Shown here piece by piece: positions 1 through 27,000 of a stretch of 64,000 bases of DNA (position 1 is the first letter of the stretch; each line of letters begins with the position of its first letter). Source of the stretch: Mizuhopecten yessoensis (lineage: Eukaryota); contig NW_018408761.1 in the NCBI RefSeq assembly GCF_002113885.1, forward strand, positions 2,096,555-2,160,554. Direction: 5' to 3'. Position numbers: made by a program.

Positions 1-3000
1 ATGAATAACAAAAGTCAACATCACACTGGCTTTTTATAAGGTTTTATTCATTTTGGCATAACATTCAATATATTTTTGCCAACACCATTAAAATATCAGG
101 GGATCAATAAAGACCCTTAGTGCTTCTTTTTCAGAAATCATATATTCATGTAATTGCTTTCTGTCAACTCTCTCTTTGACATAATTAATATTTTACAAAA
201 ACAGAGGCCCATTAATAACTCCTCTGAGGTATGGTCCCACTCAACTACCATATCCATTGTACTTAGTACTGTGGTTTGGGGCTTTCTAAGCATAAGTTCA
301 CAATAGGAATTAAGTAAACTTTGAGGACAATTCCATCGCCCAAATCATGCTATGCGCCAAGCAAAATTCATGAAATTGTCATACAAACAATAAATGTTAG
401 CAGAAATCCCTTACTTCAGTCTGGTCTGCTTCATACATGTATGCATTAATAGATTAAAAATAGTGTTAAGATAAAAACAACAAGCTTACCAAACAGTATA
501 CCTATAGGTTCAGAATTCCTGGTGAAGGTCTTTTTTTTGTATAACAGTTCTCTATTGATTAACAAAAAATGTTGATGAAAACAGGTATCCGATATCTTTC
601 CTCGCATGTTTGCTTTTCTGAGAAAAAATATAGGGAAAAAGTAAATATTTTGCTGGTTTTTTCTGAATAGCCAGTCAAAATGCATTTAAAATGTTGAGCT
701 AATTCTGACCGTTGGAATGAGATAAATATGCTTTCATGTCCAGGTGTGAAAGTAAAAAAAACAATTCGGGATTTCCAAATTGGGGCAAAATCCTCCACAA
801 GCCTTTAGCTAGGGTGAAATATCCATAACCTGCACAAAGTCTTCCATTTTTAGCTCGCCTGTTCGAAGAACAGACAGCTATAGCGATACCCCCGGCGTGA
901 GTGTCAGCCTGAAAATGTTAAAGTTTTACCTGCAAGTTATTTAGAAGCTTGTCATTCATTAAATATGTGTACTAGGATGCTGATATTTTGCAAAGAGGTT
1001 CCTGTGGGGTTAAATATTAATGAAGTGAAGTTAAAATAAAAAAATAATTTTTTTTTTTTTTTTTAGACTTTTGACCTGTTTTGAACTTTACATTTTTACA
1101 AACAAAATTTTGAATACAATGAAAGTTTGAACAGGCGAGCATTTGGTGGCTTTGACACCATCTCTGGTTAACCATCTCTGGTTAATCGCCATAATGAAGA
1201 TAGAACAATAATAGGATTTCATGACTTTATGATCTTATCTAATGCTTTGGCATATGCTTCAGAATTAAGATCAATGTCATCTGAATGTTCCTGAAACAAG
1301 TTATGTAAAGTTCCAAGTGTCGCTGAACGACCAGTCCTATTTTTCCATCTGACAATAAGTTGATGTATGACGGTAGATCCTCCATATTTCTCGTTGTCGG
1401 CCTGGACTTGTGAGATTTCTACGTCATTAAAACCAAGACAAGCACCAAATGCAATTAATTTTTGAGGTGGAAATGTTTTTGAAAGGAACATTGCATATTT
1501 ATCTGTCACCGATTTGATTTTCAATTTTTCAGGAATCTCTGGATAGCGGTCATCACCTGTACAAATATAATAACACAGAATACACTTCGGACACGCATAC
1601 ATTTAGTATCAACTTCAGAGTATTCCGTCTTTGCGTATTGCAGAGTTATCTTCTCTTTAGAGCAGGTATTGATTGTTACATCATTTGTTTTTGAGAGTAA
1701 CGTCATCAATATTTGAGAAAACGACGCAATTTTCTCACACAAACCAATGACGTAACAATCATTACCTGCTCACAAGTGAAGATAACTCTGCAATACGCAA
1801 AGACGGAATTGAAAGGTTGTGACACTTAATACAATCTAAATTGCTTTTTCCTATACTGAAAAGGAATACCATTTTCTATGCACCGACAAAATTTATTTAC
1901 ATTTTATTCCGGAACTTATTAATGGAAATAAAAGTTAGTTAAGAAACAGTTAATTGTATCTGTCACTTATTAGATACATCCAGCTTTTCAGTGTGAAATG
2001 GACTGACTTTTTTTAACAAACATTACAACCAACAGGTTATAAGTGAAAACCATTATCCAAAGTTGTGTTTCTTATAACAGAAAGTGATGAAATGTCAACA
2101 TTTTGATAGTTACATATACTTAGGTGTCATTCATCAGAGAAAAAAAACATATATATAAAATCCTGGGTTATAGCTAGGTAACACTATAAAGTCTAATAGA
2201 ATGATGTAATTTGTATGAAAACCGTCTTTAATAGAGTGAAGTAATTGAAATAATTTACCTGCTCCATTTTCTGAGACCTGAATAGGTCTTTTCTCGGTTT
2301 CTCTAATTTTCTTAGCCAAATCTTCGTTACTATGTTCTGCCAATTGGTTAAGAAAAAAGTCAAATATTCCAGCTTTTGATCTTTTTTGGTGGAGGAGCAT
2401 AACAAGTCGTTCTATTTGGTCTTGGGGAGTTTTTCCCCTCATAATATCTTCTACTACATCTTCAATGGAAAAATAACCTTGGTCAACAAAATAGTCCATA
2501 ATGTCATCAGCTTGAACATTTTTCACTATTTCTGCATAATTTGCCTCTATTTTCTTGACCTGCTCTGGAGTCATTGAAGTTGCTGTCTGTGCCATTTTCC
2601 TATAAGAAAGTATTTGAAGCATCATGTAACAATTGAAAACTTGTATAAAATTGTTACCAACAAATTTGGAATTTAAATATAAAATAGTACCTTCGATTAA
2701 AATTAAGACAAAAATATCCTACTTTGTTTTCCAGTTCCTTCATAAAAATCAAACCCAATTATCCCACCAGTTGGGTTTAAGCAAGAGGTCCAATGGCCTT
2801 TAATTGCTCACCTGGCTATTTTTGAAATCAACTTGATATCTGCTTCTTAGTTTGTGAGCAGAATTAACCCCCAGTTATCTCAGCTAGCCCCTCTATTTGT
2901 GTAACTTTGGGGTTAATGAAATAGTGTTTTATCAGTTTGTAATTTAACTGATGTGCAGTAATAGAACATAGCGATTTTTTTTATTTATTTACCTGTATTT

Positions 3001-24000: not shown

Positions 24001-27000
24001 AAGCGTTTGACATATGTTACCGCAGTGACATTGAAAGTTAGTCAAGGTCATTATCATTCTCAAACTTTGTCAGGCTCTACCCCAGGAAGCCATCAGCTAA
24101 ATATAAAGACTCTATACCTTCAATTGTTCAGAAGAAGTCGTATGAAAACTTTGATACATTTGATCCCTGTGACCTTGAAAGTAAGTCAAAGTCATTTTAA
24201 TTCTCAATTTTTTTCGGGCTCTATCCAAGAAAGCCACCAGCCAAATATAAAGACTCTATACTTTTCAGTTCTTCAGAAGAAGACGTTTGAAGAGTTTAAC
24301 ACATTTGACCCCTGTGACCTTGAAAGTAGGTCAAGGTCATTTTCGTTCTCAAATTTTGCCGGGTTCCATCCCAGAAAGCCATCAGCGAAATATGAAGATT
24401 CTATACCTTTTAGTTCTTTAGCCTAAAGTTTAGGAGAAGTGGTTAGAAGCATTTGACATATTTGACTGCTGCGACCTTGAAATTAGGTCAAGGTCATTTT
24501 AATGAGTAAACTTTATAGCACTTTATCCTAGGTACATGTACCTACTGGCAAAATTTCATGACCCTATGCCTTATGGAACTTGAGTAGAAGATTGTAAAAG
24601 GTTTTGACATATTTGACCCCTGTGACATTGAAAGTAGGTATGGGTAATTTTAATGAGGAAAGTGTATAGCACCCCATCCCAGGTATCTACTGACAAAATA
24701 GTATGAACCTGGGCTTTATGGAACTCGAGTTAAAGATTGTTAAAGGTTTGAACATATTTGACCCCTGTGACCTTGAAAGTAGGTCAAGGTCATTTTGATG
24801 AGTAAACTTTATAGCACTCCATCCCAGGTAGCTATTGGCTAAATATTATGACCCTGGGCCTTATGGAACTTGAGAAGAAGATTATTAAAGTTTTAAACAT
24901 ATTTGACCCCTATTACTTTGAAAGTAAGTCAAGGTAATTTAAATAAGGACACTTTATCGCACTCCATCCCAGGTACCTACAGGCAAAATATCATGACCCT
25001 ATGCGTTATGGAACTTGAGAAGAAGATTGTTAAAGTTTTTAACATATTTGACCCCTGTGACCTTGAAAGTAGTTCAATGTCATTTTAATGAGGAAACTTT
25101 ATAGCACTCCATCCCAGGTACATAGTGGCCAAATATCATAACCCTAGGCCCTCAAGTTCTTCAGAAGAAGTCTCTCAAAGAAAATTTGACGGACAGGCGA
25201 CGGACGCCGCAGTACAGCATAAAAAATATTCAAAATGGTGTTTCTCATAACGAAAAGTCTGGAAAAGTCAAAACTTTAATAGTTACTTAGGTGTCATTCG
25301 TCTCATATAAAAAAACTGGGTTATAGCTAGGTACCACTATACAGTCTAATATGACGATGTATGAACACAGTCTTTAATAGAGTGAAGTAATTGAAATAAT
25401 TTACCTTCTTCAGTTTCTCTAATTTTCTTGGCCAAATCTTTGTTACCATGTCTTGCCAATTGGTTAAGAAAAAAGTCAAATATTCCAGCTTTTGATCTTT
25501 TTTGTTGGAGAAGCATTACAAGTCGTTCTGTTTGGTGTTGGGGAGTTTTCCCGCTCATAATATTTTCTGCTACATCTTCAATGGAAAAGTAATCTTCGTC
25601 AACAAAATAGTCCATAATGTCATCAGCTTGAACTCTTTTCACTATATCTTCACAATTTGCCTTTATTTTCTTGACCTGCTCTGGAGTCATTGAAGTTGCT
25701 GCCTGTGCCATATTCCTATAAGAAAGTATTTGAAGCATCATTTAACAATTAAAAACTTGTATAAAATTGTTATCAACAAATTGGGAATTTAAATATAAAA
25801 TAGTACCTTCGATTAAAATTTAGACAAAAATATCATACTTTGTTTTCCAGGTCCTTCACCAAAAACAAACCCAATTATCCCACCAGTTGGGTTTAAGCAA
25901 GAGGTCCAATGGCCTTGAATTGCTCACCTGGCTATTTTTTAAAATCAACTTGATATCTGCATCGTAGTTTGTGAGCAGAATTAACCCCCAGTAATATCAG
26001 CTAGCCTCTGTATTTGTGTAACTTTGGGGTTAATATAATACAGTGTTTTAACAGTTTGTAATTTAACTGATGTGCAGTAATAGAATATAGTGATTTAAAA
26101 ATTGTTATTTACCCGTATGTGATTGGAAACTGTGCTTTAACTGTATTATAAATGGAATTTAACTTCTTATTTCTAGTTACATTGCATATTAACTCCTTCA
26201 CCTCTGAACTCATTCACCCCTGAAGACACGTTCTGAATACACATTTGACCTCTTCCAAATCAAAAGCTGGAATAGCTCCTTATGCAATTTCAGGGGTGAA
26301 TGATTTAAGGAATATATCAATTATGAATCAAATATTGATCTTATTTTTAAAAATTCACTTCCATCCTTTTTCATACTTTGGTAAATATTTACCATCTCTC
26401 TCTCTCTCTTTGAATTTAATATCATCTTATGATCTTTAACTTTGATAATTTCATAAACGTTAGATATCAATTCTGTACACAGAATTTGGACCCCTGTTTT
26501 GCAAATTTGTATGTTTGTTGCTTTGAATGTTTTATCGGTGCAATATCAGAGATAAACAGTTCCACCCTTGTGTGTAAATGATGCAGTGATGTAGTGGAAC
26601 TGGACTGGGTTGATCGTCGGTGACCAGGTAGCTTAATTGGTAGAGCCTCCGTCTAGAGTTCGGTTCGTCTCAAGGGTTTCGCATTCCAACCCCAGTCTGG
26701 CTGTTGCAATTCTCTTTCTCTGTTACAAAATTGGTGAGCTTGATTCAAGCACCGGGTGAATGATTGACAAGGGGGAAATATATACGAACCTTACTTGTAA
26801 ATAGTTGGGTCTTCGAGAGCGAAGACTAAGAAAAAGGAGGGAGGAATGTAACGGAACTAGACTGATAGAGTCGATTGTCGCCGACCAGGTAGTTCTATTG
26901 GTAGAGCGTCGGTCTAGAGTTCGGAGGGTCCCGGGATAAACAAACAAAATATGGGCATTGTGACATCTGGGCGAAACGACTAATTCGTAATGTCATCAAG

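What the first reader, a model, noticed from the sequence alone, without database searches (positions are those of the whole stretch)
1219..25711. Tandem cluster of minimal CARD-Death-domain adaptor genes
Seen: two intact genes (224 and 214 aa), each just one CARD exon plus one Death-domain (DD) exon joined in phase 1, and a third DD exon, all on the minus strand within 25 kb. Known: CARD+DD is the architecture of RAIDD/CRADD, the PIDDosome-caspase-2 adaptor, which is single-copy in vertebrates. Inference: a lineage-specific, recently expanded family of death-fold bridging adaptors linking DD receptors or sensors to CARD caspases. The six-frame ORF track splits these genes and hides the architecture.
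Basis: partly seen in the sequence, partly recalled or inferred. Interest (0 to 1): 0.72.

Follow-up and report, generated by a model that had tools for sequence, protein, structure and literature searches.

The report
Duplicated scallop CRADD-like adaptor genes
Two neighbouring scallop genes each encode a small CARD-plus-death-domain adaptor of the CRADD/RAIDD type, with a truncated third copy between them; both genes are already in public databases, so the finding is real but ordinary.

Summary
On the minus strand lie gene A (2595-2259 + 1556-1219, 224 aa) and gene C (25711-25405 + 23303-22966, 214 aa), each a CARD exon joined in phase 1 to a death-domain (DD) exon, plus a lone DD exon B (8316-7976). 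The window is Mizuhopecten yessoensis. Pfam, AlphaFold2 and Foldseek confirm a CARD fold and a DD fold; the DD's best solved match is human RAIDD DD. The CARD is nearer to NOD1/APAF-1 CARDs than to RAIDD CARD. A and C lie in a segmental duplication of at least 7 kb (82-94% nucleotide identity; dS about 0.19) and are sisters relative to the Argopecten and Ylistrum proteins, so the duplication is specific to this lineage among the scallops sampled. It is neither very recent nor a large family: two intact genes and one 5'-truncated relic. Pairwise dN/dS is 0.71, not significantly below 1. CRADD homologues in molluscs are already published. Already known; low interest.

The parts
2259..2595 (-). 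Gene A, exon 1: start codon, CARD, start of linker (112 codons + 1 base)
   Evidence: Sequence read; Pfam CARD 34.7 bits; AF2 pLDDT 83.1 with broken helix 1; identical to residues 1-112 of P0001
1557..2258 (-). Gene A intron (702 nt, GT..AG), holding a 188-nt palindromic MITE-like element at 1622-1809
   Evidence: arms 1622-1700 / 1731-1809, 89% complementary; copy at 53682-53865
1219..1556 (-). Gene A, exon 2: rest of linker, death domain, stop
   Evidence: Pfam Death 25.2 bits; AF2 pLDDT 91.9; Foldseek top hit RAIDD DD 2o71; identical to P0001 113-224
7976..8316 (-). Copy B: orphan death-domain exon with intact acceptor and stop, no CARD exon
   Evidence: DNA homology to A stops at 9014, which equals A 2158. 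No CARD or promoter remnant in 8900-21900
6075..6335 (-). Second exon of database model P0003 for copy B, read out of a 22/44-bp tandem repeat
   Evidence: P0003 residues 1-80 = 8251-8012 and 81-167 = 6335-6075; tandem repeat 6078-6338
25405..25711 (-). Gene C, exon 1: start codon, CARD; linker 10 codons shorter than in A
   Evidence: Pfam CARD 36.0 bits; identical to P0002 1-102
23304..25404 (-). Gene C intron (2101 nt), enlarged by a 145-bp tandem repeat array at 23931-25150
22966..23303 (-). Gene C, exon 2: death domain and stop
   Evidence: Pfam Death 18.5 bits, below the cut-off; family HMM 152 bits; identical to the P0002 C-terminal half
1..7171 (.). Duplicated unit A (cut by the window edge)
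   Evidence: blastn against 21860-32136, 82-94% identity, collinear
7585..9014 (.). Duplicated unit B, truncated: 3' flank, DD exon and part of the intron only
   Evidence: blastn to A 473-2158 (71-81%) and to C
21860..32136 (.). Duplicated unit C

Best explanation
This is the CRADD/RAIDD-like adaptor locus of the Yesso scallop (Mizuhopecten yessoensis), duplicated in tandem. Gene A (NCBI LOC110463089, 224 aa) and gene C (NCBI 'Death domain-containing protein CRADD', 214 aa) each encode an N-terminal CARD, a disordered linker and a C-terminal death domain, one domain per exon. Copy B kept only the DD exon and is a 5'-truncated relic. Shown here: the gene structures, the two folds, the duplication and its order relative to two other scallop genera. 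Inferred from the known behaviour of death-fold adaptors: the DD joins a DD-bearing sensor or receptor in an oligomeric assembly, and the CARD then recruits a CARD-prodomain initiator caspase (caspase-2-like), which is activated by proximity. Gene A looks like the conserved copy. Gene C has changed more: a 10-residue linker deletion and 48 substitutions against A. It may be drifting or taking on a modified role.
For: Organism and identity with deposited models. Domains, exon by exon: Pfam; AF2 CARD exon pLDDT 83.1 with helix 1 broken at 18/20, AF2 DD exon pLDDT 91.9; Foldseek finds CARD structures for exon 1 and puts RAIDD DD 2o71 first for exon 2 (E 8e-4, TM 0.67/0.79); phmmer of the DD exon against PDB has human CRADD DD as best hit (E 0.002, 87 aligned residues). 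Same ~220-aa CARD+DD build in relatives: Ylistrum balloti P0004, Argopecten irradians P0024, Pinctada imbricata P0013, and unnamed P0010 and P0023. N-termini of P0004 and A align from residue 1, which supports the start codon. Duplication: collinear 82-94% identity over at least 7 kb. Each copy has its own insertions, a MITE in A's intron and a 145-bp array in C's intron, so they are separate loci and not an assembly artefact. A+C are sisters in both domain trees. [quoted passage not shown]
Against: The CARD is not specifically RAIDD-like. RAIDD CARD 3crd is only Foldseek rank 45 (TM 0.56). It is absent from all four PDB sequence searches that covered the CARD (and 42 via full-length rows). 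NOD1 and APAF-1 CARDs lead instead. With family profiles, RIPK1 and THOC1 DDs score above CRADD DD. Death scores for C and B are below Pfam's cut-off. The residue aligned with human RAIDD R147, whose R147E change is reported to block PIDDosome formation (PMC4977500, passages), is Gln in A and His in C (alignment). A-C dN/dS is 0.71 and not significantly below 1 (Fisher p = 0.24), so constraint on both copies since the duplication is not shown. No expression or binding data could be reached.
Confidence: 0.8

Rival explanations
1. Only gene A is a working adaptor. Gene C is a drifting duplicate on its way to becoming a pseudogene (or a decoy), and B is already one.
For: dN/dS A-C is 0.66 (CARD), 0.76 (DD) and 0.71 pooled, not significantly below 1. 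Exon DNA identity (91% and 83%) is no higher than flank identity (82-94%). In the trees A's end branch is 0-0.02 and C's is 0.18-0.41. C lost 10 linker codons. C's Death score fell to 18.5 bits from A's 25.2.
Against: C keeps an open frame of 214 codons, both splice sites, the start, the stop at the same place and an in-frame deletion. Relative-rate tests are not significant: with Argopecten as outgroup, 3 vs 5 unique changes (CARD) and 5 vs 13 (DD), p = 0.73 and 0.10. C is a deposited gene model.
Confidence: 0.3
2. The genes are not CRADD orthologues. They belong to an independently assembled invertebrate CARD-DD adaptor family whose CARD is of the NOD1/APAF-1 kind, and the CRADD name is only an architecture match.
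For: CARD: APAF-1 CARD E about 1e-12 with the broad family profiles. NOD1 and APAF-1 tie at E about 1e-3 with the scallop-only profile, and RAIDD CARD is not among the 21 hits with E <= 10. Foldseek ranks 1-11 are APAF-1 CARD entries; RAIDD CARD is rank 45. Helices 2 and 3 are strongly acidic, net -4 each. DD profiles rank RIPK1 and THOC1 above CRADD.
Against: The DD exon alone and P0010 alone both have CRADD DD as their best DD hit. RAIDD DD is the clear first Foldseek hit. Size and domain order match CRADD. A published tree groups mollusc CRADD sequences with a human outgroup, though it does not test against other CARD or DD families (PMC11463336, passages). 3crd is an NMR model, which lowers TM-scores.
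Confidence: 0.2
3. The two copies are an assembly artefact: uncollapsed haplotypes placed in tandem.
For: Collinear similarity over several kb on one contig.
Against: Divergence of 6-18%, 48 amino-acid differences, a 30-nt deletion, different intron insertions, and 12 kb of unrelated satellite and transposon DNA between the copies. This is far more than allelic variation.
Confidence: 0.02

Closest known systems
Vertebrate CRADD/RAIDD (PIDDosome adaptor for caspase-2)
   Same: N-terminal CARD, flexible linker, C-terminal DD, about 200-225 aa. The DD is the best sequence and fold match to solved RAIDD DD. NCBI names gene C 'CRADD'.
   Different: The CARD is not detectably RAIDD-like. The position of human R147 is Gln/His. 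Here the gene is duplicated in tandem, whereas it is single-copy in vertebrates (recalled, not tested). Partners are unknown; PMC11463336 reports finding no PIDD in lophotrochozoans, while PMC8917759 and PMC7836458 mention PIDD1 annotations in oysters and clams.
Mollusc CRADD homologues described by Krasovec et al. 2024 (PMC11463336) and the RAIDD homologue of Mytilus coruscus cited in PMC7836458
   Same: Same architecture and phylum. The relatives found here come from Ylistrum, Argopecten and Pinctada.
   Different: Mizuhopecten does not occur in that paper's main text or in its one held supplement file. Its discussion speaks of only one CARD-containing activator in these animals, whereas this locus has two intact copies.
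APAF-1 and NOD1 CARDs
   Same: Nearest solved CARDs by profile and by fold: TM up to 0.88 on the target, rmsd 1.5 A. Helices 2 and 3 are acidic; that the APAF-1 CARD has an acidic face there is recalled, not tested.
   Different: No NB-ARC/NACHT or WD40/LRR part; the CARD is followed by a DD. Sequence identity is only about 20%.

Membership tests
CRADD/RAIDD | One CARD, then a linker, then one death domain, in a protein of about 200 aa with nothing else | tested here: met
   Pfam per exon; folds; deposited full-length models of 224 and 214 aa; no further CARD or DD exon in the window
CRADD/RAIDD | Death domain closer to RAIDD DD than to other DDs | tested here: inconclusive
   Yes for the single exon (phmmer E 0.002 vs RIPK1 0.015) and for the fold (2o71 rank 1, E 8e-4 vs next 1.4e-2). 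No for the family profiles (RIPK1/THOC1 about 1e-8, CRADD 4e-6 to 2e-5).
CRADD/RAIDD | CARD closer to RAIDD CARD than to other CARDs | tested here: not met
   RAIDD CARD is absent from the hit lists and is Foldseek rank 45; APAF-1 and NOD1 CARDs lead
CRADD/RAIDD | Orthology by phylogeny with vertebrate CRADD against other death-fold families | not tested
The tree holds only mollusc-type CARD-DD proteins.
CRADD/RAIDD | DD binds PIDD1 DD; CARD binds caspase-2 CARD | not testable with these tools
   No scallop caspase or PIDD-like sequence was in hand. The residue aligned to human R147 is not conserved, which is only a hint.
CARD (PF00619) fold | Six-helix death fold with helix 1 broken into 1a and 1b | tested here: met
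   AF2 helices 10-18 / 20-26, then 29-39, 44-51, 57-70, 77-87, 91-99. The listed Foldseek hits (ranks 1-49 as shown) are CARD structures, apart from three designed proteins, two of them built on an APAF-1 CARD template.
Death domain (PF00531) fold | Six-helix death fold matching solved DDs | tested here: met
   AF2 pLDDT 91.9. The Foldseek hits listed down to rank 26 are all DDs.

The most novel reading that the evidence does not exclude
These mollusc CARD-DD adaptors may not be plain CRADD orthologues. They pair a RAIDD-type DD with a NOD1/APAF-1-type acidic CARD, in a phylum reported to lack APAF-1. They could therefore serve as the main platform for activating CARD-caspases. In the scallop, the tandem duplicate C, with its shorter linker and altered DD surface, may have become a regulator or an adaptor for a second input.
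Probability: 0.12. Interest if true: 0.55.

Novelty: already known. Interest (0 to 1): 0.15.

Why it matters
It matters little beyond annotation. It shows that the scan can rebuild correct two-exon death-fold genes from raw sequence. It also documents that the Yesso scallop has two intact CRADD-like genes side by side, plus a relic, whereas a published survey treats this adaptor as the sole CARD activator in molluscs. For scallop apoptosis or immunity work, expression studies should tell LOC110463089 and the 'CRADD' paralogue apart. The mixed affinities of the domains (RAIDD-like DD, NOD1/APAF-1-like CARD) deserve a proper domain phylogeny.

Tried and rejected
- A third CARD exon for copy B: not found by tblastn, by family HMM over 2857 six-frame pieces, or by word-7 blastn of A 2150-3300 against 8900-21900.
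- An N-terminal extension through the acceptor-like site just before the ATG: not supported, because four deposited relatives start at the same place. A 5'-UTR exon remains possible.
- A strong 'APAF-1-type CARD' claim: weakened when the scallop-only profile gave a tie with NOD1 at E about 1e-3. The E of 1e-12 depends on the distant members P0010, P0013 and P0023.
- ESM Atlas look-alikes gave only generic CARD and Death clusters.
- The alignment-based homologue search returned only 3 proteins, so copy numbers in other scallops are not established.
- Complex prediction was not used: no binding claim rests on it and no partner sequence was in hand.
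Full report
**What is there**

The window is AT-rich animal DNA (GC 0.32-0.41, one N at 40005).

- Gene A starts at ATG 2595. Its first exon ends at 2259 (G|GTAAAT). A 702-nt intron ends in a pyrimidine tract and AG at 1558-1557. The second exon runs 1556-1219, stop included. That is 337 + 338 nt, or 224 codons, with the junction after the first base of a Gly codon (phase 1).
- Gene C has the same build: ATG 25711, donor after 25405, acceptor before 23303, stop ending at 22966. 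That is 307 + 338 nt, or 214 codons, phase 1.
- A third copy of the second exon, with the same acceptor and stop, lies at 8316-7976 (copy B).

**How the searches were run**

The full-length proteins were seen only as database records that the exon searches returned.

**Domains**

Each exon was scanned on its own.

- Pfam: CARD PF00619 scores 34.7 bits (A) and 36.0 bits (C) against a cut-off of 23.9. Death PF00531 scores 25.2 bits (A) against a cut-off of 22.6, but only 18.5 (C) and 16.5 (B).
- AlphaFold2 with small family alignments:
  - CARD exon: mean pLDDT 83.1. Helix 1 is broken at residues 18/20, five more helices follow, and the last ten residues (the linker) are disordered.
  - DD exon: mean pLDDT 91.9.
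- Foldseek against the PDB:
  - The CARD model matches CARD structures, with APAF-1 CARD entries at ranks 1-11 (TM on target up to 0.88, rmsd 1.5 A).
  - The DD model puts RAIDD DD (2o71) first, at E 8e-4, with the next hit at 1.4e-2.

A profile HMM of each domain run over 2857 six-frame pieces of the window finds exactly two CARD exons and three DD exons, and nothing else below E 0.3 (tblastn agrees).

**Whose genes they are**

The CARD exon of A, searched against longer proteins, returned two proteins of Mizuhopecten yessoensis, both recorded with a longest contig of 2,742,948 bp:

- P0001, 224 aa, 'uncharacterized protein LOC110463089';
- P0002, 214 aa, 'Death domain-containing protein CRADD'.

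Their sequences are exon 1 + Gly + exon 2 of A and of C without a single difference.

An exhaustive HMMER pass with the DD exon over 1.84 billion cluster representatives gave only 22 proteins at E <= 1e-3. Among them are CARD+DD proteins of 217-226 aa (P0004, P0010, P0013, P0023; Pfam). Two have names: P0004 is from Ylistrum balloti and P0013 from Pinctada imbricata. P0024 is from Argopecten irradians.

**Copy B**

One of the 22 hits, P0003 (167 aa), is a deposited model for copy B. It starts at an internal Met of the DD exon (8251) and leaves the exon at a cryptic GT after 8012. It then continues in the 22/44-bp tandem repeat at 6335-6075. This gives a clipped DD with a low-complexity tail.

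DNA homology of B to A covers the 3' flank, the DD exon and the intron up to 9014. That point corresponds to A 2158, about 100 nt short of the CARD exon. A word-7 blastn of A 2150-3300 against 8900-21900 finds nothing. B is a 5'-truncated relic. Its open DD frame is not surprising at this divergence (my rough estimate, no call behind it).

**The duplication**

Unit A (1 to about 7171, cut by the window edge) is collinear with unit C (21860 to about 32136) at 82-94% nucleotide identity. This includes flanks and intron.

Each copy has its own insertions:

- a 188-nt palindromic MITE-like element in A's intron (1622-1809), with another copy at 53682-53865;
- a 1.2-kb array of a 145-bp repeat in C's intron (23931-25150).

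Between B and C lie a 40-bp satellite of 66.6 copies (11335-14023), a Mutator-like transposase and other unrelated DNA. This rules out uncollapsed haplotypes.

In maximum-likelihood trees of each domain, A and C are sisters. Support is 80/81 on the DD and 89/92 on the CARD, relative to the Argopecten and Ylistrum proteins and a related protein of unknown source, P0005. B is unresolved (10 DD rows and 8 CARD rows, with long outgroup branches flagged by the tool).

The duplication is thus specific to the Mizuhopecten lineage among the scallops sampled. Copy numbers in other scallops could not be established, because the name-bearing searches returned only 2-3 proteins each.

**Selection**

| Comparison (Nei-Gojobori, per exon) | dS | dN | dN/dS |
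|---|---|---|---|
| A vs C, CARD | 0.129 | 0.086 | 0.66 |
| A vs C, DD | 0.236 | 0.179 | 0.76 |
| A vs C, pooled counts | 0.185 | 0.132 | 0.71 |
| A vs B, DD | 0.281 | 0.211 | 0.75 |

- The pooled A-C ratio is not significantly below 1 (Fisher p = 0.24).
- Exon DNA (91% and 83% identical) is no better kept than the flanks.
- C has the longer end branches in the trees (0.18-0.41 against 0-0.02 for A).
- Relative-rate counts are not significant. With Argopecten as outgroup, changes unique to A vs C are 3 vs 5 (CARD) and 5 vs 13 (DD). With Ylistrum they are 1 vs 7 and 4 vs 8. The p values run from 0.07 to 0.73.
- C also lost 10 linker codons in frame, a loss absent from the outgroups.
- The 18 CARD and 30 DD substitutions are spread over all helices and loops.

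Constraint on both copies since the duplication is therefore not demonstrated. C may be drifting or changing role.

**Is it CRADD?**

The architecture and size fit. The DD fits reasonably:

- human CRADD DD is the best PDB sequence hit of the A exon (E 0.002 over 87 residues; RIPK1 next at 0.015);
- it is also the best DD hit of P0010;
- it is the first fold hit.

With family profiles, however, RIPK1 and THOC1 DDs (about 1e-8) outrank CRADD DD (4e-6 to 2e-5).

The CARD does not fit:

- RAIDD CARD (3crd) is Foldseek rank 45;
- it appears in none of the sequence hit lists;
- APAF-1 CARD leads with the broad profiles (E about 1e-12);
- APAF-1 ties with NOD1 CARD at about 1e-3 when only the five scallop-clade CARDs are used, so the strong APAF-1 signal comes from the distant members.

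Helices 2 and 3 of the CARD are strongly acidic, net -4 each.

One residue-level hint concerns human RAIDD R147. The R147E change is reported to block PIDDosome formation, and the construct used spans residues 94-199 (PMC4977500, passages only). That residue aligns with Gln in A and His in C (alignment).

I therefore file the genes as CRADD-like by architecture and DD. Strict orthology is untested and one sub-test (CARD affinity) is not met.

**Mechanism**

Shown here: two folded death-fold modules on one small protein with a flexible linker.

Inferred from what is established for death-fold adaptors: the DD enters an oligomeric DD assembly with an upstream DD protein, and the CARD recruits a CARD-prodomain caspase, which is activated by induced proximity.

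The partners are unknown. One paper reports finding no PIDD in lophotrochozoans and proposes that CRADD activates caspase-2 or 'caspase-Y' there (PMC11463336, passages). Others cite PIDD1 annotations in oysters and clams (PMC8917759 and PMC7836458, passages). ZU5+DD and NACHT+ZU5+DD proteins of unknown source were among the weak DD hits (P0011, P0015, P0012). I did not follow them up.

**Novelty**

Mollusc CRADD/RAIDD homologues are in print and these two proteins are in NCBI.

I found no paper on the tandem duplication in this scallop. The searches were:

- 'CRADD' + 'bivalve' + 'death domain' (9 papers);
- 'CRADD' + 'scallop' (32 papers, 15 listed);
- 'PIDDosome' + 'mollusc' (14 papers);
- 'Mizuhopecten yessoensis' + 'death domain' + 'tandem duplication' (6 papers).

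I read only listings for these, apart from passages of three of them (PMC11463336, PMC8917759, PMC7836458). 'Mizuhopecten' does not occur in the main text of PMC11463336 or in its one held supplement file.

The finding is real, correctly read and already known. The only mildly new points are the second intact copy and the mixed domain affinities.

**Not checked**

- RNA-seq support and haplotype copy number.
- The rest of the 2.7-Mb contig.
- Other scallop genomes.
- The closed collections metagenome contigs and viral contigs.

Noticed in passing
window 11335-14023: A 40-bp satellite of 66.6 copies at 87% match, which gives many overlapping spurious ORFs on the + strand.
   Followed up: no
window 23931-25150 and 63419-63913: A tandem repeat of period 145 bp fills most of gene C's intron. 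A second array of the same period lies near the window's end. Whether the two arrays are related was not tested.
   Followed up: no
window 16019-17602 (-), flanked by 14964-15321 and 18785-19062; also 49649-50197 (-): ORFs matching Pfam Mutator-like transposase (E 2e-7 and 6e-15). The first is split by a stop and bracketed by direct repeats about 88% alike. Probably decayed MULE-type transposons.
   Followed up: partly
window 20791-21030 (+): An isolated 79-aa frame with a strong Mnd1 HTH domain match (E 8e-24), sitting between copy B and unit C. Either one exon of an Mnd1 gene or a fragment.
   Followed up: no
window 34698-40004 (-) and 60320-63062 (+): Exon-like frames of ABC transporters: ABC_tran (E 1e-5 and 5e-10) and ABC-2 membrane domain (E 1.5e-10). 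This suggests two ABCG-type genes in opposite orientation.
   Followed up: partly
window 57904-58998 (+): Tc3/Tc1-type transposase HTH, below the Pfam cut-off (27.5 bits against 31.5), followed by a further open frame. Probably a mariner/Tc1 relic.
   Followed up: no
window 1622-1809 and 53682-53865: A 188-nt palindromic MITE-like element (79-nt arms, 89% complementary) inside gene A's intron, with a 93% identical copy 52 kb away. Neither call aligns this stretch to units C or B.
   Followed up: partly
window 6078-6338: A 22/44-bp tandem repeat that a deposited protein model (P0003) reads as 87 residues of coding sequence spliced to copy B's DD exon. Likely an annotation artefact or a junk transcript.
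   Followed up: partly
proteins P0007, P0008, P0011, P0012, P0015 (no window coordinates): Weak DD relatives of unknown source have striking builds: CARD + 5 DDs (754 aa), 4 DDs (536 aa), ZU5 + DD (671 and 682 aa) and NACHT + ZU5 + DD (1830 aa). These could be candidate upstream partners of CARD-DD adaptors.
   Followed up: no
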